From the NCBI GenBank assembly GCA_013265495.1, contig MU058059.1:2953502-3017501 (forward strand): 64,000 nucleotides of DNA. Direction: 5' to 3'. This DNA comes from Vicugna vicugna. Taxonomy: Eukaryota. The notes beneath the pieces were generated by a model. That model saw only the letters and a list, made by a program, of their open reading frames with translations, ran no database searches and was not told the DNA's origin. Below are positions 42,771 to 51,910 of the stretch, one piece after another. The stretch's first letter is position 1, and every line of letters begins with the position of its first letter. Both the position numbers and the translations under genes were made by a program.

Positions 42771-44030
42771 GATGACAGTGCCGATCTGAAGTGCCAGCTT
42801 CAGTTTGCCAAAGAGGAGGGCTCCCTGATGCTCAGGAAGATGGCTAAGCTGGGGCGGGAGAAGGACGGGCTGGAGCAGGAGCTGCAGAGGTACAGGGCCC
42901 TCTACGGGGACGTGGACAGCCCCCTGCCCACCGGCGAGGCGGGCGGGCCGCCCAGCACCCGGGAGGCCGAGCTGAAGCTGCGGCTGAAGCTGGTGGAGGA
43001 GGAGGCCAACATCCTGGGCCGGAAGATCGTCGAGCTGGAGGTGGAGAACAGGGGCCTCAAGGCGGAGATGGAGGACCTGCGGGGCCAGCACGAGCGGGAG
43101 GCGGCCAGCCGGGACCCTGTCTCCAGCATCCCTACCTCACCCTTCGGCGACTCCCCGGAGTCCTCCGCGGAGCTGCGCCGGCACCTGCAGTTCGTGGAGG
43201 AGGAGGCGGAGCTGCTGCGGCGGTCCATCTCCGAGATCGAGGACCACAACCGGCAGCTGACCCACGAGCTGAGCAAGTTCAAGTTCGAGCCGCGGCCAGA
43301 GCCGGAGCCGGCGTGGCTGGCGGCGGGCACGGGCGGTGGGGCGCCCCTGCAGGACGAGCTCCAGGCGGCCCGGCTGCAGATCCGCGAGCTGAGCGGGAAG
43401 GTGCTGCGGCTGCAGCAGGAGAACCGGGTGCTGCTGTCCAACCCCCCGCGCGGCGACAGTGACGCCGACAGCGACGTGGGCCGGAAGGAGAGCGACGGGG
43501 AGGACGGCCGCCCGCCCCAGCCCAGGCGCGAGGGCCCCATCGGTGGCGAGAGCGACTCGGAGGAGACCTTTGAGAAGACGTCGGGCTTCGGCAGCGGAAA
43601 GCCATCGGAGGCCGGAGAGGGCCCGGCGGAGCTGCTCAGGGCCCGGGAGGACTCTGAGTGCCTGACGAGCATCAGGCACGAGGCCGAGCGGCTGGAGCGG
43701 ACCGTGGAGCGCATCATCACCGACACCGAGGACCTTGCCGCCGTCTTGCCCGGGGCTGGCGTCCAGGGGGACGGGGAGAGGGGAGAGGGTGCCCAGACGG
43801 AGCCCCAGCTGCTGGGGACCCTCAACACCAGGATGAAGGCTTTCAGGAAAGAGCTCCAGGCCTTCCTGGAGCAGGTGGACCGGCTCGGGGACGGCCTGAG
43901 GGAGCGTCTGGAGGGCCTGTCCCCGCTGCCCCACCTCACGGAGTCGTCCAGCTTCCTGTCCACTGTGACCTCCGTGTCCCGGGACTCCCCCGTCGGGAAC
44001 CTGGGGAAGGAGCTGGGCCCTGACCTGCAG
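42771..44030 (+). CDS. MTCL1: MTCL1 large coding exon, 1260 nt (420 aa), SOGA-family coiled-coil region ([16 protein letters not shown]...GKELGPDLQ)
   Basis: Acceptor ttctctcctggcag| and donor CAG|gtaagg; open frame within ORF 42672..44129; strong GC3 bias; SOGA-family motifs [56 protein letters not shown] and [13 protein letters not shown]; the [14 protein letters not shown] and [14 protein letters not shown] segments are MTCL1-like. Confidence 0.96.
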
Positions 44031-44129
44031 GTAAGGGGGCTCCCGGCTCTGCCTCCCTGCTCCCTCCTGCTCCTGCTGGCTGGCCTGGCCGCGCTCCAGC
44101 TCCTCCTGCTCACGGCTGCTTGGCTGTGA
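44031..44129 (+). CDS. MTCL1: Candidate alternative C-terminus of MTCL1 by read-through of the exon donor ([32 protein letters not shown])
   Basis: The frame stays open 32 codons past the donor to TGA; 14 Leu codons, all CTC/CTG; no transcript evidence available. Confidence 0.4.
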
Positions 44130-44839
44130 TTGCAAACCCGCGTCGTGCTAAAGCCTCCGGTGTCAACCAAATCCTTTCTCTTGGTTGGGTTTCTCCTTTC
44201 TCTTGGTTTTGTTTTATTTGTTGGTTTAGTCCTTTCGTTCCCTGGTTTCCTCTCCCTATTCCTCTTATTTTTAAACCGCACAGCTGCTCTTGGCTTAGAG
44301 GTCCTCCCTCTTGCCACGAGGCTGATCCTGCTGGAAACGCTAGGGATGGACACAGGCCTCCCTTTTTTTTGGCATCCCAAACAACCAGCCCTCCCGATGA
44401 AGAAGCAGAGAGGAGTTTAAAACAAAGTCCACGGGCACTTCGCAGTCGGGATGCGTAGCAGACTCCTCGGGAGCGCGGGCGTCCCCACCTGCGTTCACTG
44501 CCCCAGGGACAGTCCAGCCCCGAAGGCAGAGGGAGCCCACCCGCCCACCCCCTCTGCGAGACGGACAGACTCTGGGAGAGGGACAGCCTGGACAGGGAGG
44601 AGCACGGCCAGAGAAGGATGTGAAAGCACCCGGAGCCAAGGGCGGCGACAGCGCGGCCTCCCGGGACTGCTCTCCTGCGCGGCGCCCTGGACCATGGCCT
44701 GGCCGCCCGACCTCAGCGAGGCGGCAGGAGCCTTGTTCCCGTATCCTTCCCGGTGGCCTGCCTGCGGGCGAGTCTGCCTCCGTGTCCCCATCGCACGCGC
44801 CTCGTCAAGCCTTCTGCATTCTCTCCCTCTGCTTTCCAG

Positions 44840-44947
44840 GTCCTTCTGCCTGTCCTCACGCTCGCCCTCACTTCGGTTCTGTTTTCTCTCTCTGTCGCTG
44901 CTGTGTTTGCGTTGCTGTCTCTGGTCATGCTGCTCTCTGTCCCGTAG
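44840..44947 (+). CDS. MTCL1: Candidate alternative exon encoding a hydrophobic C-terminal tail (VLLPVLTLALTSVLFSLSVAAVFALLSLVMLLSVP*)
   Basis: Strong acceptor ttctctccctctgctttccag|; phase 0 matches the donor at 44030; no purine at codon position 2 in 35 codons. Confidence 0.5.
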   Translation, partial: VLLPVLTLALTSVLFSLSVAAVFALLSLVMLLSVP

Positions 44948-45067
44948 TTTCCCAGCCGTCTGCCTTCCCCACCCCTCCTCCACCCTCTTGGTCCTTTGTG
45001 TTTTGTTTAAAATTTTTCAAAAAACAAAAACAACAAAACCCACAAATCCCTCCCGTGCACCTAACAG

Positions 45068-45223
45068 TCCAAACTGAGAGATCAGATGGAGTGGCAGCTC
45101 GGGCAGGAGCGAGGGGAGGAGCGGGGGCCTCTGCCTCCGCGAGCCGCACGGGAGCTGCACCGCCGAGCCGATGGGGACGCCGGGAGCTGCCGGCCCGGAG
45201 CCCAGAGCTGCTTCAGCCTAGAG
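45068..45223 (+). CDS. MTCL1: MTCL1 coding exon, 156 nt ([12 protein letters not shown]...AQSCFSLE)
   Basis: Acceptor ctaacag| and donor GAG|gtcagc; 52 codons in phase 0; matches recalled MTCL1 SRLKEQLEWQLG...[13 protein letters not shown]...CFSLE. Confidence 0.9.
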
Positions 45224-46799
45224 GTCAGCAGTGGTGGTCCCCCCGCTGCCCCCTCCCGCCCCTCCTCTGCTGTGTGTCTGTGTGATGGTTCCCACCTGAG
45301 TCCCAGGCCCCTTGGGAACGCGGCAGGGGGAGTGTGGAAGCAGGGGGGTGTCACTGCATGCACCTGACCTGGGGGTTCCCCAAGGGGTGACGGCAGGGAA
45401 ACCGGCTGTCTGGGGCCTGCGGGCGCCTGGGGATGTAGCAAAGCATCTGAGACTGATTCGAGAGCACTCTGTGGCTCCTTGTCAAACAGTAAGGAAAGCG
45501 GAGCTGAAACCCAAGCTTGTCCTCCCGGTGTCTCATGGGCCCACCCGGCATTTTCCCTTGATCGTCTCCAGCCATTGGGCAGAATCAAGGATGCTCTCCT
45601 GACTTGGGGGTGCTTCTGTAGTCGCTGTTGCCATAGCAACTCTCGTCCACAAAGCTCCCAGCCCCCACAGATACTCTGTTGTGGTAAACAGTTTTCCCTC
45701 TCCGTGCAAGTAATTCCACCCAGGACAGGACAGGTGTCCCCGAGGAGTGAGGCCGATGACCGCAGGGTTAGAGCAGCATGTTCTGTGTTAGAGAAGCTCT
45801 GGATGAAGGCTCTTCATTCATCAGTCCCAGTGGGGATATCACTGGTCAGTTCTGAGGCATCATAGCGGTTCCTAGATGGCAGGGGAGATGGAGAGAGGGG
45901 GTTGTCACATCTGGAAGCAAATGGAAGTTCACTTGGCAAAGAGTCAGGCGTTTGATCAGGAGAAGTGCGTGGAGGGCCTGTCGGTTCAGCTTGCGGCTTG
46001 CGCCCCAGTGAGGCTGCTGCCGCGCAGTCAGAGGACTCGGGTATGGGTCTCTCCAGCTGGGGTCTCCTCCCTGGTCCTGTAGGGGCTGGGCGGGTGGTGA
46101 TGTGAAGACCACCCCCAGAAAGCGTAAATGAAAGCAAGGCAGTTCAGGAACATCCCAGGCGGCCCCTGTCCTCGCATCACCTGGGCAGAGGCCGGGCCTG
46201 CCCGAGGAGGTGGCGTCCAGGCCCAGAGGGAAGTGACTGGCCCACAGCCAGGCGTGACAAGGGACTTGGCCTGTGAAGGGCTGAGCTCCCAGGAAACAGG
46301 CAGAATCCTGGCGTGCTGGCTGCATGGAGCCACCATGGGTGGTCCCCAGGCAGAGGGACCTCCCGGTTAGAAGCACGGAGGGCCCAGTGTAAGCACTTGT
46401 GACTTTTTAAGAGGTGTCTTCTGGACACGTCCAGCGTGCTGGCTGCAGGGTGTCGTCTCCCCGGAACAGCAGCCGTGTGCCCAGCAGGGCGGCCCCACAC
46501 GTCGGGGCATCCCACTTCCCCATGGACTCAGCCATGTGCTCTGACTGCACTGGACTACAGGCAGCCCCGGCCAGCCCGTGTCTCACACAGGCCCCTCGTC
46601 TGTGAAGGCCACTTGCTTGGGCAGCTGCAGGCTCACAGTTAGGTGCATTTCCAGTGAACCGGGTGATCCATCTCCAGGATGGAAACCGGGATGGAAACTT
46701 CAGGGAAACATGTTTCCCAGCCTTTGGTTGCCACTGTACCCACTGCTCTTTCTAGTGGGGACGGCATGCCGCGCGCTGGAATCCACCCCGGCAGAGGCA

Positions 46800-46930
46800 C
46801 TGGTGTCCCAGGCTCCAGCCCAGCTCTGCCTATTTCTAGCTGTTTCTCATGTAAGTCTCTGGGCCTTTGTTTTCTCGTCTGTACAATGGGAGTAAAAATA
46901 CTGCCTGGTTGCCTCACGTGGGTAATAAGC
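46800..46930 (+). mobile_element. MIR fragment
   Basis: cccagctctgcctatttctagctgt...tctctgggcctttgttttctcgtctgtacaatgggagtaaaaatactgcct. Confidence 0.65.
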
Positions 46931-49900
46931 GGTTGATTTTTGGAGCCAATGAGCTGTTGACTGAAAAGCATGAGACTGTGTCATCGTGACGTCTGGGAAA
47001 GGGGGTGACATCCTGCTGCTGAAGGCTGCCAGGTGGGGGATGTCCCAGCTCCTGCAGTCTGTGTGGCTTCACAACTATAAACGCGCAGTGAAGATGAACA
47101 AGAGCCGGCCAGTCAGGGCACATCAAATGACAGCACACACAAGCCCCAGGCAGGCCAGTCTGGGTCCCATCCTGCTCGCAGAGGACTGGCACCAAACGCT
47201 ACGGCTGGTGGCTGGGCCCCGGGGCCAGTTCTCTCTGCCCGCTGTGGCCTTCTCTCACTTTCCCCTGGCTGCTCCCTGATCCTGTCCCGGGAACGCGGCT
47301 CGTGGCGAACAGGGCAGTCCACTTCCCTCTGACACCCCGCTGAAGAGAACGTGCCCCTCCCTGTGCCGCACCACCCAGTGTGTCCCACGTGACTGTGTCC
47401 GGGGGACTCTGCGGAGTGCCAGCACCTCTCCGCCACCCGAGGCCCCGCCGGCTCCCTGGGCAGGGGTGTGTTCTCGCTCACCCAGACTGGTGGGCTTTGC
47501 GTCAGAGGCCGGCAGGGCTTTGGAGAGAGGAAGATGCTTTGCTGAGTCCACGTGGTGGGAAAGCCAACCTTTGAACAAGGCGAGTGAGCGCAGCTGGTTG
47601 TGCCTGTGGTACCTTAGGGTCCCCGAACATGACTGCTTGGAAGGGATCTTCAGCGGAGCCCCCTCATTCTGTGAGAGAGAAGAGAGGGTGTGAACCAGTG
47701 TCAGCCAGCCCCCCGCGGGCCGTGCTGGGCCGGGGTCCTGAGCAGTCTCACAACCTGGTCAGGCCCCCCCCCCCAGTGGGGAGTGCTGCCCTCCCCTCCC
47801 TGGGGACGTGTTCAGACCCCACCACTGGGCGGCTCCCTGTCTGGCCGGCCGTCTTGCCATGGGGTGTTTATTCTCTTAAGCATCTATCTGTTTTCCTTTA
47901 GTTGTATACACTTTAATGAGGGAGTGAAGAGTCTCAAAGACAAAGGCAGGGTCCAGGACCATCACTTCCTGGAAGGGAAAACAGAATTAATCAGGGGTTG
48001 TTTGTTCTGACTTTTTCTATTCACCAAGGTATTTCACACAGGAGAGAAAACTCAGTTATGTACGCAAACACCTACTATACTGTTTGAAAGACAACACACA
48101 TTCACGGACCACTCTGGTGGCTCTGCAGTTTTCCCTCTTAGAGAAGCTGAGCGTGGGTCCCGTCGGGGCTGGGTCTCGAGGGAGCAGCTGTGTCCGTCCC
48201 TGGGGTGCATGTCACCCTGACACACAGTTCAGTCTGCTCTTTAAATACTACGCTGGGTTACAGGATGGTACAGCAGACAGTTCTAGGGAGCAGAACTCTA
48301 AACCTTTTAATGAAAACCTCCCCCAATTCAATGCCCACAAAGGCCATGGTGGAGCCAGTGCACAGGCCCCACCAGGCGGCAGGGCGTCTGGCCAGAGGGG
48401 CCGCTCCCACTGCGGGCTGAGGGCTCATGCCACGTGGCTATGGAGCACCATGCAGCCACAGCGTGCCACTTGCCGGGGGTGGGGCGGCAAACACAGAGGT
48501 CTTCATCTAGAAGGAGTGAGACTGAGGCCGGGCATCCTCCCAGCTGCTTTCTTCACTCCCTCTTCCGTTGTCCTGGAAATAACTGCCACTCGTCTGCACG
48601 AGCCAGCTATGCCTGCACACGTGTGAACGTCCTCCGGCTCCTGGCCCATAGGTCCCTGGGGCTGGTGGCAGACCACCAGGGTCAGCAGCTTGAAAGTGGC
48701 GGCAGCCTTCTGAGTTTCAGCTGTTAAGTTTGGGAAATTTCTCAACTCTAAGTTTCCAAGTTCCATTTGTGAAGTGCCTTCTATGTTTTTGCCTGATAGA
48801 TGTTCACGTTTGGGGGAAAAGAGGAAAGAAGTTAAATGCTTACTTGGGACGCACTGGGTGCTTTGGCCGGGTTTAGGTACTGCCAGCACCAGCAGCAGGC
48901 AGTAGTAACAAGGTGGAAAAGGAAAGCCCCTTCTTAGCCTGTCAGCAGATAACAGATCTGTGTGTGGGAGACCTGCCACGTGGAATGGCCACGACCAGGG
49001 AGCTCAGGTCAGAACCCACCAGCCCACTAATGCAGCCACAGAATCCACCACTCGGAGGAAAAGGACGCAGCTGGCCTCCAGAAGGACCAGTGTTCCTGTT
49101 GCTTATTTGCCTCCGCAGACGTCGGCAAGATTCCCACCGGATTCTTCCCTGACCGCTCCCTGGGGCTCCCGGCGAAGCTGCTGAGAGATTCCCATTTGTC
49201 AGGAGAGCAGTGTACGAATATGTGGTTTGGAATGTGTGGGCACTAAAAATAGTTCCGAATGAGGGGTAGCCAAGTACAGGCACCGGCTGGGTTTCAGACA
49301 CACCCGGAGCCAAGCCTGTGCCCGAGGATTGGGTTTCCGGGTCAGGAGTCCCCCGGGGCCCTTCTCCGAAGCTCCCCTCCCGCGCTCCCCCCCGCAGGCC
49401 GCTGTGCCGCCGCTGTGCCATGCCCGCCGCGGTGAAGCGGCCCGGGGCTTCCCGCCAAGTGTGCGCCGAGCACAGGTGTCGACCTGGTGAGCCGCTTCTG
49501 AAAGAGGCCGGAGCTCACCAGAACAGGAGGTCACGGTGATGGAGGCTGACGAGAGTCCTACTAAGCTGGGGTCTAGGAAGGGGGTACAGTGAAAAGCGTT
49601 GCCTTTTGGGGGTTCGGTTTGGCTTCGTGTGCTGAGGCCATGCCGGTCTCCTCTAAGTGTGGAGTAATTCATAGGCCACCTTCTCTGAAGATGTCCGGAA
49701 GTCAGCTGTGTGCGTTGGTGTGGGACAGCCTCGAGGGGGAAAGCCTGGGCCATGGGTGTCACAGCAGTGACACCGGGACGGTGGTCGTGATGTCAGCTGA
49801 AGACGCGTGAGCTGCCCTCGTAGAGGGGACTAAAGTGCGCACGTGTGACGTGCCGTCAGGCCCGTAGCTGAAGGGCAGAGGACGGTTTTAGAGCTAACCT

Positions 49901-51910
49901 CTGGGGACTTGGTGACGAAGGGACGTATTTCTGCCGCAGCCTGTTTGTATTTTGGTTTTTGGTGACACAAGAGTGGCGGCCTCCCGATGTGGTGCAGTTC
50001 GTTGTCCGTGGAAGTTTTACTGTCCTGTTAGCAAAAGTGGAGAAGAAAGTGCAACTTCTAATAGCTGAGGAAGGTCTAGAAGTTTCTGTCGTGGACCAGC
50101 CTCCACAGAAGACATGGGAGCTGCTGTAGGTAAAGGAGTTGCCTCGCAGGACTTCAGGGGTCCTTCTCTGTGACCTTTCAAAGGCGAGGTTCAAACGGGG
50201 ACACATCTGTAATCAAACGATGCTAAGGTACGAGGCTCATAGATCTGTTTAAAAATAGCTTATATAATTATGTATTAAGATTAAAAGCAAACTAGTTTAG
50301 CCTCACGGGTAGAAAAGTTCGGCTTTTCTCAACAGAGTAGCTTGATCAGGCTGCTGTTGTAACATCTAAGAGTAAGGAGCTTGGGGCCAGTACCAGACGT
50401 GTTAAAACACGGAGGATTCTCACATTCTAAATGCAGAGTAGGGTGGGAATCCCAGCTGAAGCTGGCAGTGGAGCAGCTGGGCGACCTGGAGGCGCTCGTG
50501 TGCTGAACAGCTTGAGGGGCGGAGGGCGCCCCCGGGGGGCAGGGACTGGGGACGTTTCCGGGAGGTTGCAGATGACAGACCCAAGAGGACCGCCCCCCGC
50601 CAGGGCTGGACCTCCAGCGGTGGATCCTCTAGCATCTGCGGGGCACCTGCCCCACACTGGGCACTGCACAGCATCGGACACTTGACCACACTCAGCCAGT
50701 GGCCTGAAGTAACGCACAAGTAAACTGCAAAGCCTGGATTTGCAGTAGCTGGGCGGCCCCCTTCCCCGCCCCATCCGTCTTGTCGTGTCTGCACAGGGGA
50801 CAGAAGCAGGGGTGGGACTCGGGGCTGCTAAGACGTGAAGCAAATCGCCACCGTCTGACTGTCTGACGTCCTTCCAGCCTGAAGTGCAGATGAGCTCTGG
50901 TGTCCTGACAGTGGCCGAGCCAGTGACCAAGCTGCCTCCGGGGCCTCCCAGGGCTGCCTGGCTTAGCCTGGCACTGGCCTTAGCACGTCGGTGGTGGTGG
51001 CTTCGACCTCAGGCAGTCCCATGGTTTGTGAGCACCAGTCTTGTTCTTTAGGGAAACCAAACCCAAGCCACCCACTGGTTTTGGCACGGGAGGGGTCCAG
51101 TCAGGAGAGGACAGCTGGTACCAGTAAGCCTGGTGTTCTTACTCTCTCTGCTCTGTGGAGCAGAAAACCCTCATCCCGCGTGCCACGTTAGCTACTAGAG
51201 ATTCTCCTCTGTGCCTTATCTGTAAGGTAGGGATGCGTTCACACCCTTCGCTTAGCCGTTATTGGCACATAATAGTTGTTTATTGCTTGGAACAGTGCCT
51301 GTACCCGTGTTGGGAAAAAACAGGAACTTGACAGTGATGGAAAACATTGTTCAAGCACCGCTTGTACTTCCCTGAGAGTCACCCATACCTGATAGGAAGG
51401 TGAGGTCTCAGGTGTGGACAGAGGTGATCAGCCTTCCTGCATGCAGCGGAGCACCTGCTGGTCCTCCTTCCGTTAGGGCGGTGGGGACCCAGGGCAGGAA
51501 GTCGAGGGGAAGGATTCCTGCTGACGCTGCTTTGGCAGGTGCAACGTGCCGTGTGTCCCAGCCTGGTGCAGAGGGCCAGCGGCGCCTGCATCTGAGTTGG
51601 CTGTGAGCCCTGCAGCCAAGAGACAGCTTCCTGCAGGAGTTCAGTAATGTCTAAAACCACCACGGCAGACTCCACAGGGAGAAGTGATTCTGACCCCTTG
51701 CCTTGAAACAGCAGGCACTTCTGAATCAGAAGACACCTGACATTTTATAAATAGAAGCCCCCTCAAGGAGTGGACCAAACGGGGGGCTTCTGAGTTTCGT
51801 GTCCCACGGGCAGGGTGGCGCGGGCTGGCTGGCGGTGTGCAGAGGCTGGCTTTGGTCCGGGTGGCGGGTCAGGACGGGGCCTGTCTCACCCTCGCGTCCC
51901 CTCCCTGCAG

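What the first reader, a model, noticed from the sequence alone, without database searches (positions are those of the whole stretch)
44815..44947. Hidden in-frame exon encoding a pure hydrophobic C-terminal tail: candidate membrane-anchored, SOGA3/MTCL3-like MTCL1 isoform
Seen: a strong acceptor (ttctctccctctgctttccag, AG at 44838-39) lies 228 nt upstream of the canonical acceptor. Spliced to the phase-0 donor at 44030 it reads VLLPVLTLALTSVLFSLSVAAVFALLSLVMLLSVP-TAG, 35 residues with no charge. Of the 26 purines in these 35 codons, 14 are at position 1, 12 at position 3 and none at position 2. The naive chance is (2/3)^26, about 3e-5, ignoring post-hoc selection and dinucleotide bias, so this is more than a pyrimidine tract and the periodicity is in the frame the splice requires. 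Established: paralogue SOGA3/MTCL3 is a shorter SOGA protein annotated with a C-terminal transmembrane segment. From memory, and unverified, its tail contains a similar VLFSSLS...IF.L..L..L pattern. Inference: MTCL1 may keep an ancestral terminal exon that gives a tail-anchored coiled-coil protein lacking the C-terminal microtubule-binding region.
Basis: partly seen in the sequence, partly recalled or inferred. Interest (0 to 1): 0.8.

Follow-up and report, generated by a model that had tools for sequence, protein, structure and literature searches.

The report
Hidden membrane-tail exon in MTCL1
An intron of the camelid microtubule cross-linker gene MTCL1 holds an unannotated 35-codon exon that matches the membrane-anchor ending of its sister gene SOGA3/MTCL3, so MTCL1 may also make a membrane-anchored short form, though no RNA evidence could be obtained.

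Summary
AG lies at 44838-39. A phase-0 ORF at 44840-44947 gives 35 uncharged residues, with purines 14/0/12 by codon position.

It is more than chance:
- 4 of 200,000 dinucleotide shuffles lack purines at position 2.
- It is the only such run of 25 or more codons in six frames of the window.

The gene is camelid MTCL1. In the same genome the SOGA3/MTCL3 locus carries a 36-codon tail exon in the homologous intron, also phase 0. The two align end to end: score 44, reached by 1 of 20,000 shuffles, and rank 1 of 1,164 window segments. A local profile test is weaker, at 104 of 20,000 shuffles.

That tail is near-invariant from lamprey to mammals. In lamprey it alternates with a long C-terminus.

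Weaknesses:
- No orthologue DNA.
- No poly(A) signal nearby.
- Only 14 of 36 residues identical.
- No annotated protein carries the tail.

A second hydrophobic tail, made by donor read-through, is conserved across mammals.

Verdict: a real homologue of the SOGA3 tail exon; present use is unproven.

The parts
42771..44030 (+). Large coiled-coil exon of MTCL1 (420 codons, Pfam SOGA domain). It ends in phase 0 with ...GKELGPDLQ and is followed by donor GTAAGG at 44031.
   Evidence: ORF. (96-98% identity to camelid MTCL1 proteins). (PF11365 SOGA, 223 bits). Paralogous exons end the same way: SOGA1 ...KDLGSDFQ|gtaaga and SOGA3 ...PISVSQ|gtacag.
44031..44129 (+). Donor read-through [35 protein letters not shown] plus TGA. 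This is a second hydrophobic C-terminal tail, made if the intron is retained.
   Evidence: The same tail ends 11 of the 120 best MTCL1 database entries, all ORF-type calls from several mammals. 25 of its 32 positions are invariant in 8 aligned sequences. Two further representatives carry it. It has no likeness to the SOGA3 tail (10,579 of 20,000 shuffles score as well).
44816..44839 (+). Polypyrimidine tract and the AG (44838-39) of the hidden acceptor.
   Evidence: 18 of 20 pyrimidines at -23..-4, then cag|G. Of the six AGs in the intron that have 15 or more pyrimidines in the 20 bases upstream, this has the most.
44840..44947 (+). Hidden exon coding part: 35 uncharged codons plus TAG. It is homologous to the terminal tail exon of SOGA3/MTCL3.
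   Evidence: sequence. (periodicity). (Kyte-Doolittle 21-residue maximum 2.53). (alignment statistics). (single copy).
44948..45067 (+). Stretch between the hidden stop and the canonical acceptor (AG 45066-67). It includes the A-rich tract 45019-45046. It would be 3' UTR, or part of an exon extended upstream by 228 nt, if the hidden acceptor is used.
   Evidence: (period-9 A-rich array at 45019-45046). (no AATAAA or ATTAAA; no donor-like site scoring 6 or more of 9 apart from the acceptor itself).
45068..45223 (+). Canonical next exon (52 codons, [10 protein letters not shown]...SCFSLE, phase 0 on both sides). It is a cassette exon that some annotated MTCL1 isoforms skip.
   Evidence: some isoforms join ...GPDLQ directly to MEEEHL.... 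P0255 gives ...[15 protein letters not shown].

Best explanation
The 108 bases at 44840-47 are the MTCL1 counterpart of the terminal 'tail' exon of the paralogue SOGA3/MTCL3. That exon is old: it was already present before the vertebrate paralogues split.

Proposed mechanism. When the donor at 44031 is joined to the AG at 44838-39, rather than to the weaker AG at 45066-67, the reading frame continues for 35 uncharged residues and then stops. The product would keep the N-terminal part and the coiled coils of MTCL1. It would lose everything encoded downstream, which according to the literature includes the C-terminal microtubule-binding region. It would end in a hydrophobic segment able to sit in a membrane, either as a tail anchor or, given its 35-residue length with a conserved polar VLFS(S)LS centre, as a hairpin.

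Shown here: the sequence features, the codon periodicity, and the positional, phase, length and sequence homology to the SOGA3 tail exon.

Inferred: that selection has kept the exon coding until recently or still does, that it is spliced, and that the product is inserted into a membrane.

The fate of the mRNA is open. No standard poly(A) signal follows. The transcript may therefore run on through the cassette exon, in which case the stop would be premature and the message prone to nonsense-mediated decay.
For: 1. Codon-phase signal: 0 of 26 purines lie at position 2. This is matched by 4 of 200,000 dinucleotide shuffles, and the run is unique in six frames of the window.
2. Same gene architecture in the paralogue. 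In the same genome, contig C9280 holds the SOGA3/MTCL3 locus (89% identity to Latimeria 'MTCL family member 3'). Its homologous big exon also ends in CAG in phase 0. 1,406 nt downstream, compared with 809 nt here, comes cag|ATG... encoding a 36-residue tail plus stop.
3. End-to-end alignment of the two tails has one gap and 14 identities, including P4 and VLF-SLS. The score is 44 against a shuffle mean of 7.4, SD 7.9; 1 of 20,000 shuffles reaches it.
4. The hidden exon is the best of 1,164 pre-stop 35-mers in the window (next best 15). Reciprocally, the SOGA3 tail is the best of 142 in its own 10 kb (32 against 5).
5. None of the 1,163 other window segments reaches the hidden exon's 14.8 bits against a profile of six SOGA3 tails (best 9.6).
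6. The tail family is ancient and constrained. It is identical in a second animal (L011). It differs at 1-5 of 36 positions in teleost 'SOGA3-like' proteins and in lamprey. A distant SOGA-domain protein, P0422, ends in a gap-free alignable tail (0 of 20,000 shuffles).
7. Lamprey proteins P0311 (861 aa) and P0431 (1,526 aa) share their first 825 residues (two matching blocks separated by a 4-residue mismatch) and part exactly at the tail junction. So 'one gene, tail or long C-terminus' is an annotated arrangement.
8. Exons homologous to the MTCL1 C-terminal region lie 17-22 kb downstream of the SOGA3 tail exon. The tail exon therefore occupies the same place in both genes.
9. It is not a repeat.
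Against: - No RNA evidence.
- No orthologous MTCL1 intron from another species could be fetched. Conservation of the AG, the frame and the stop is untested.
- No protein in the 5.8-billion-sequence collection matched the tail at E<=10. That search covered 75-2000 aa, scored 228 candidates, and is weak evidence by the tool's own wording.
- 0 of the 120 best MTCL1 entries end in this tail, and so do 0 of 150 family representatives.
- There is no AATAAA or ATTAAA from 44031 to 50280. The SOGA3 tail exon has ATTAAA 180 nt after its stop.
- Identity to the SOGA3 tail is only 14 of 36, while SOGA3's own tail differs at just two positions between lamprey and camelid. Any constraint here must be looser.
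- With a local profile test, 104 of 20,000 shuffles score as well, and local pairwise alignment gives 81 of 20,000. The strong P value depends on end-anchored alignment.
- SOGA1/MTCL2 has no such exon in the corresponding intron, so loss does happen in this family.
Confidence: 0.55

Rival explanations
1. Silent relic or poison event. The stretch is truly descended from the ancestral tail exon, but MTCL1 no longer uses it to make protein. Either it is not spliced at all, or the upstream AG is used only as an alternative 3' splice site that extends the cassette exon by 228 nt. That would place a premature stop and send the mRNA to nonsense-mediated decay.
For: - No poly(A) signal follows the stop, and no usable donor lies between 44840 and 45067.
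- No annotated protein carries the tail.
- SOGA1 has lost its copy.
- The tail has drifted to 14 of 36 identity while SOGA3's stayed near-invariant.
- Another upstream acceptor in this same intron is annotated in human, and it gives a frame-shifted product (J3QL92). Noisy acceptor choice therefore exists here.
Against: A stretch free of selection should not keep 35 of 35 second codon positions as pyrimidines, with an intact AG, frame and stop. My own rough estimate uses a recalled mammalian neutral rate of about 2e-9 per site per year, with one third of changes being transversions. It gives a first disruptive change after some 40 million years. The relic would therefore have to be recent. A pure poison exon needs only a stop, not a hydrophobic reading frame.
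Confidence: 0.25
2. Splicing-regulatory tract. The CU- and YGCY-rich sequence upstream of the weak acceptor of an alternatively skipped exon is a binding platform for regulators such as PTBP or MBNL. The open hydrophobic frame is a by-product of composition.
For: - The next exon is a cassette with a weak acceptor (13 of 20 pyrimidines) and is skipped in annotated isoforms.
- The intron is pyrimidine-rich and throws up two other hydrophobic ORFs.
- That the tract is rich in UCUU, CUCUCU and YGCY-type words is my reading. That these words are the binding motifs of PTBP and MBNL is recalled knowledge, not tested here.
Against: Composition does not explain the phase locking (4 of 200,000 dinucleotide shuffles). 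It does not explain the exact bounding by the AG and the stop. It does not explain the order-specific, reciprocal-best likeness to the SOGA3 tail, which uses quite different, AT-rich codons. A regulatory role could coexist with coding.
Confidence: 0.1
3. The membrane-anchored short MTCL1, if there is one, is made by reading through the donor at 44031 (intron retention), giving VRGL...LLTAAWL. The hidden exon would then be secondary.
For: - The read-through tail is found in 11 of 11 ORF-type entries among the 120 best hits, from primates, ruminants, camelids and other mammals.
- 25 of its 32 positions are invariant in 8 sequences, there is an in-frame 2-residue indel, and the stop is conserved.
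- Its Kyte-Doolittle maximum is 2.34.
Against: - Those entries are ORFs called on genomic or unclassified contigs, plus one ab initio model. They are not transcripts.
- Non-mammalian read-throughs are not alike (P0292, P0316, P0297).
- There is no likeness to the SOGA3 tail and no poly(A) signal in the intron.
- So much invariance in a membrane helix could equally reflect an intronic splicing element.
- It does not exclude the hidden exon.
Confidence: 0.3

Closest known systems
Terminal tail exon of SOGA3/MTCL3. Here it is camelid contig C9280, exon start 26973895. The same tail is found in proteins named 'SOGA3-like' or 'microtubule cross-linking factor 3-like' in teleosts.
   Same: It lies in the intron after the homologous coiled-coil exon. 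It is phase 0 after a codon CAG and has a cag| acceptor with a strong pyrimidine tract. It is 35 against 36 codons, ends directly in a stop, and is almost wholly hydrophobic. P4 and the VLF-S-LS centre are shared.
   Different: SOGA3's tail is near-invariant from lamprey to mammals and has one lysine; MTCL1's shares only 14 of 36 residues and has no charge. SOGA3's exon is followed by poly(A) signals; MTCL1's is not. SOGA3's tail is the annotated C-terminus; MTCL1's is unannotated.
Lamprey SOGA-family gene with two annotated products: P0311/P0430 (861 aa, tail) and P0431 (LOC144726525, 1,526 aa).
   Same: One locus gives either the hydrophobic tail or a long C-terminal extension, branching exactly after the big exon's final Q. 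This is the arrangement proposed for MTCL1.
   Different: These are gene models from two annotation sources; I saw no transcript data. Its tail is of the conserved SOGA3 type.
Human MTCL1 short form J3QL92 (509 aa) and its primate counterparts.
   Same: They use an alternative acceptor inside the same intron, upstream of the canonical one, giving a truncated product.
   Different: That acceptor lies only 14 codons upstream. It shifts the frame of the cassette exon and gives a non-hydrophobic ending (...FAKHPP). It does not touch the hidden exon.
Genes that give an anchored or a soluble product by choice of last exon (cytochrome b5, syntaxins, Bcl-2 family). These examples are recalled, not checked here.
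   Same: A soluble or an anchored product arises from one gene through an alternative C-terminal exon.
   Different: Those hydrophobic segments are about 20 residues with flanking charges. Here there are 35 uncharged residues with no charged flank, which fits a hairpin as well as a single span.

Membership tests
SOGA3/MTCL3-type tail exon | Lies in the intron directly after the large SOGA-domain coiled-coil exon, on the same strand, upstream of the exons for the C-terminal region. | tested here: met
   The position is the same in the MTCL1 and SOGA3 loci. Exons homologous to the C-terminal region lie downstream in both.
SOGA3/MTCL3-type tail exon | Phase-0 junction: the upstream exon ends on a whole codon CAG, and the tail exon starts right after cag| with a pyrimidine tract. 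| tested here: met
   Pyrimidines in the 20 bases upstream: 18 here, 16 in SOGA3.
SOGA3/MTCL3-type tail exon | 35-36 hydrophobic codons running straight into a stop. | tested here: met
   35 codons plus TAG here; 36 codons plus TAA in SOGA3.
SOGA3/MTCL3-type tail exon | Order-specific sequence likeness to the tail consensus. | tested here: met
   Global alignment: 1 of 20,000 shuffles reach the score. Rank 1 of 1,164 window segments, and reciprocal best. The local tests are weaker: 81 of 20,000 and 104 of 20,000 against the profile.
SOGA3/MTCL3-type tail exon | Near-invariance of the tail sequence (lamprey against camelid SOGA3: 34 of 36). | tested here: not met
   The hidden exon shares only 14 of 36 residues with the camelid SOGA3 tail.
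SOGA3/MTCL3-type tail exon | Terminal exon with a poly(A) signal downstream. | tested here: not met
   no AATAAA or ATTAAA between 44031 and 50280. SOGA3 has ATTAAA 180 nt after its stop.
SOGA3/MTCL3-type tail exon | Spliced into mRNA (junction reads). | not testable with these tools
SOGA3/MTCL3-type tail exon | Kept in orthologues of the same gene. | not testable with these tools
   Scans of metagenome, prokaryote-genome and viral contigs gave no MTCL1 intron from another species.
Tail-anchored membrane protein | A hydrophobic segment at the extreme C-terminus and none elsewhere. | tested here: inconclusive
   The C-terminal segment is present (Kyte-Doolittle maximum 2.53). The rest of the protein, which lies partly outside the window, was not scanned. 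35 uncharged residues is long for one span.
Tail-anchored membrane protein | Post-translational insertion and membrane localisation. | not testable with these tools
   Needs experiment.
MTCL/SOGA protein family (the host gene) | Pfam SOGA domain and orthology to MTCL1. | tested here: met
   (PF11365, 223 bits against a cut-off of 31.1). (96-98% identity to camelid MTCL1).

The most novel reading that the evidence does not exclude
The SOGA/MTCL family began as membrane-anchored coiled-coil tethers. The hydrophobic tail exon predates the split of the vertebrate paralogues and is also found in a distant SOGA-domain protein.

On this reading MTCL1 is still a two-output gene. It would make the known soluble microtubule cross-linker. 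It would also make a so far unseen short form that is fixed in a membrane (Golgi or ER) by a 35-residue hairpin-like anchor built around the conserved VLFS(S)LS centre.

Mammals may have added a second anchor of their own by reading through the donor. If so, this one intron would encode two different membrane endings.
Probability: 0.3. Interest if true: 0.8.

Novelty: new member of a known kind. Interest (0 to 1): 0.6.

Why it matters
MTCL1 and MTCL2 are studied as cytosolic proteins that tie microtubules to the Golgi. The passages I saw of the MTCL2 preprint speak of a single paralogue, and the word 'transmembrane' does not occur in its text.

A membrane-inserted MTCL1 form would give a direct physical link between membrane and microtubule lattice. 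It would keep the N-terminal and coiled-coil parts and lack the C-terminal microtubule-binding region. It would also tie the uncharacterised SOGA3/MTCL3 tail to a function shared by the family.

The claim is cheap to test: one RT-PCR junction and one GFP-tail fusion. Even if the exon proves silent, it documents how one ancestral 'tail or long end' gene was resolved three ways. It was kept hidden in MTCL1, lost in SOGA1/MTCL2, and made the sole annotated end in SOGA3/MTCL3.

Tried and rejected
- **RNA evidence.** The look-up of sequencing runs listed RNA runs holding 0.36-0.37 of the sampled words of 43700-45250.
- **Database search with the tail.** A 42-residue reference was searched against proteins of 75-2000 aa. 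228 candidates were scored and none reached E<=10. The 35-residue reference was too short for the tool.
- **Orthologous MTCL1 introns.** The metagenome-contig scan gave one SOGA3-type locus (L011, useful) and three short fragments without the relevant region (L012-L014). The scans of prokaryote genome contigs and of viral contigs gave nothing.
- **Earlier notes of this scan.** There was nothing on this place, on look-alike stretches, or on MTCL1/SOGA3. The listed notes on other genes' hidden anchor exons did not bear on this case.
- **SOGA1/MTCL2.** The intron after its big exon, and 20 kb downstream, hold no tail-like ORF; the best score is 11.
- **Read-through tail as the SOGA3 homologue.** Rejected; it has no likeness to the SOGA3 tail.
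- **Triplet-repeat origin.** Rejected.
- **Transposon-derived exon.** Rejected; the region is single copy.
- **A search of the hidden exon against the own genome** failed on a parameter and was replaced by scripted scans.
- **Literature.** 'SOGA3' with 'tail-anchored' gave 0 papers. 'MTCL2' with 'SOGA3' gave 0. 'SOGA3' with 'transmembrane' gave 29 papers and 'MTCL1' with 'isoform' and 'transmembrane' gave 36; none had the topic in its title, and I saw the listings only.

Full report
**What is there.** The window is part of camelid MTCL1. The 210 residues encoded by 43401-44030 are 96-98% identical to MTCL1 of Camelus and Vicugna, and the exon 42771-44030 carries the Pfam SOGA domain. That exon ends on a whole codon...CTG CAG, at 44030, followed by GTAAGG. 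The canonical next exon is 45068-45223. It has 52 codons and is phase 0 at both ends. Several annotated isoforms skip it, joining ...GPDLQ directly to MEEEHL.... Its acceptor is weak, with 13 of 20 pyrimidines.

228 nt upstream of that acceptor sits a much better one, with 18 of 20 pyrimidines and cag|G, AG at 44838-39. Read in the phase that the donor dictates, it opens VLLPVLTLALTSVLFSLSVAAVFALLSLVMLLSVP and then TAG.

**Is it more than chance?** The 26 purines fall 14/0/12 over the codon positions. Only 4 of 200,000 dinucleotide-preserving shuffles of the 105 nt have none at position 2. In all six frames of the 64-kb window this is the only stop-free run of 25 or more codons with a pyrimidine at position 2, and it is bounded exactly by the acceptor's CAG and the TAG. 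No tandem repeat is detected in it, and the surrounding 368 nt are single copy in the genome.

A caution applies. The intron is pyrimidine-rich, and two other hydrophobic ORFs lie in it (44031-44129 and about 44160-44276). Hydrophobicity alone proves little.

**The paralogue test.** The own genome holds two paralogous loci.
- The one on contig C3841 is SOGA1/MTCL2, with 96% identity to SOGA1 proteins.
- The one on C9280 is SOGA3/MTCL3. Latimeria 'MTCL family member 3' maps to it at 89% identity.

The SOGA3 big exon also ends in phase 0 on CAG. 1,406 nt downstream, after ...ttcccag, comes [36 protein letters not shown] plus a stop.

Aligned end to end with the hidden exon, it needs one gap and shares 14 residues, including P4 and VLF-SLS. 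The score is 44 against a shuffle mean of 7.4, SD 7.9, and 1 of 20,000 composition-preserving shuffles reaches it. Less favourable tests must be told too. Local alignment gives 81 of 20,000, and a profile of six SOGA3 tails gives 14.8 bits, reached by 104 of 20,000 shuffles.

Against real sequence the result is clean.
- Of 1,164 pre-stop 35-mers in the window, the hidden exon is the best match to the SOGA3 tail, 44 against 15 for the next.
- None of the other 1,163 reaches its profile score; the best is 9.6.
- In the 10 kb after the SOGA3 exon, the SOGA3 tail is the best match to the hidden exon, 32 against 5.

The two exons use very different codons, one GC-rich and one AT-rich, so the likeness is at the protein level. 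The donor read-through tail shows no likeness to the SOGA3 tail. SOGA1 has no such exon in its corresponding intron.

**How old is the tail?** The SOGA3 tail is identical in a second animal's contig (L011). It differs at 1-5 of 36 positions in teleost proteins named 'SOGA3-like' or 'microtubule cross-linking factor 3-like', and in lamprey.

Lamprey proteins of 861 and 1,526 residues share their first 825 residues, in two matching blocks separated by a 4-residue mismatch. They diverge exactly where the tail begins. That is an annotated case of one gene ending either in the tail or in a long C-terminal region.

Exons homologous to the MTCL1 C-terminal region lie 17-22 kb downstream of the camelid SOGA3 tail exon. 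A distant SOGA-domain protein, P0422, ends in a tail that aligns without gaps to the SOGA3 tail (0 of 20,000 shuffles). The tail exon is therefore an ancestral part of the family's gene plan, and the hidden exon sits where that plan puts it.

**Inference on selection.** A sequence split from SOGA3's for as long as the paralogues have existed could not stay alignable, open and purely hydrophobic without selection for most of that time. Using a recalled neutral rate of about 2e-9 per site per year, I estimate that 35 second-position pyrimidines would take a first transversion in some 40 million years. Constraint was therefore lost recently, if at all. This is my estimate, not a computed test.

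**What speaks against a working isoform.**
- I could not see any RNA.
- No orthologous MTCL1 intron could be fetched.
- No database protein carries the tail. 0 of the 120 best MTCL1 entries end in it, and so do 0 of 150 family representatives.
- No AATAAA or ATTAAA follows until 50280, and no donor lies before 45068. The exon would act as a 228-nt upstream extension of the cassette exon, with a premature stop, unless an unusual 3' end is used. SOGA3's tail exon has ATTAAA 180 nt after its stop.
- The hidden tail keeps only 14 of 36 residues of a motif that SOGA3 holds nearly fixed.

**A second tail.** Reading through the donor gives [32 protein letters not shown] and then TGA (44031-44129). 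This ending closes 11 of the 120 best database entries. All 11 are ORFs called on contigs or ab initio models, from primates, ruminants, camelids and other mammals. 25 of its 32 positions are invariant among 8 sequences, with an in-frame 2-residue indel, and two more representatives carry it. Non-mammalian read-throughs differ. It is either a coding extension used by an intron-retaining isoform or a conserved intronic splicing element. I cannot tell which.

**What is known.** Human J3QL92 and its primate relatives use yet another acceptor in this intron and shift the frame of the cassette exon, so alternative acceptor use here is on record. In the passages I saw, the MTCL2 preprint describes MTCL1 and MTCL2 as cytosolic. 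It speaks of a single paralogue, and the word 'transmembrane' does not occur in its text. Searches for SOGA3 with 'tail-anchored', and for MTCL2 with SOGA3, found no paper.

**Verdict.** Homology of the hidden exon to the SOGA3/MTCL3 tail exon is well supported; I put it near 0.85. Whether camelid MTCL1 still makes a membrane-anchored short protein from it is open, at about even odds. The main alternatives are a recently silenced relic or NMD-coupled splice event (0.25) and a splicing-regulatory tract (0.1). The read-through tail is a possible second or alternative anchor (0.3; it does not exclude the hidden exon).

Noticed in passing
window 44031-44129 (+): Donor read-through ORF encoding a 32-residue hydrophobic tail (VRGL...LLTAAWL plus stop). 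It is conserved in ORF-type database entries from many mammals: 25 of 32 positions are invariant in 8 sequences. It is either a coding extension or a strongly conserved intronic element next to the donor.
   Followed up: partly
window 45068-45223 (+): The canonical next exon is a 52-codon cassette with a weak acceptor, and it is skipped in annotated isoforms of several species. Human J3QL92-type models use an acceptor 14 codons upstream and read this exon in another frame, ending ...FAKHPP.
   Followed up: partly
own genome, contig C9280: tail exon at 26973895; further exons at 26991020-26991241 and 26995590-26995679: Exons homologous to the C-terminal region of MTCL1 lie 17-22 kb downstream of the SOGA3/MTCL3 tail exon on the same strand. 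From memory, mammals annotate this part as a separate gene (KIAA0408). Latimeria's 'MTCL family member 3' model joins both parts.
   Followed up: partly
protein P0422 (unnamed Logan contig, 1,364 aa): A distant SOGA-domain protein (Pfam 63 bits) ends in a 36-residue hydrophobic tail that aligns without gaps to the SOGA3 tail. Its organism is unknown. It suggests that the tail is older than the vertebrate paralogues.
   Followed up: partly
own genome, contig C3841 (SOGA1/MTCL2), intron after ...KDLGSDFQ: No tail-like exon is present. The donor read-through there is short and not membrane-like (VRRLSHRPYYFFLFLFFFF). SOGA1 seems to have lost the tail.
   Followed up: yes
window 44160-44276 (+): A third hydrophobic ORF lies in the same intron (Kyte-Doolittle maximum 2.65), in the frame of the read-through but after its stop. 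No acceptor or homology was found, so it is probably a product of composition.
   Followed up: no
window 45019-45046 (+): An A-rich period-9 array (AAACAACAA, 3.1 copies) lies just upstream of the canonical acceptor. It is a likely site of oligo-dT mispriming in 3'-end data.
   Followed up: no
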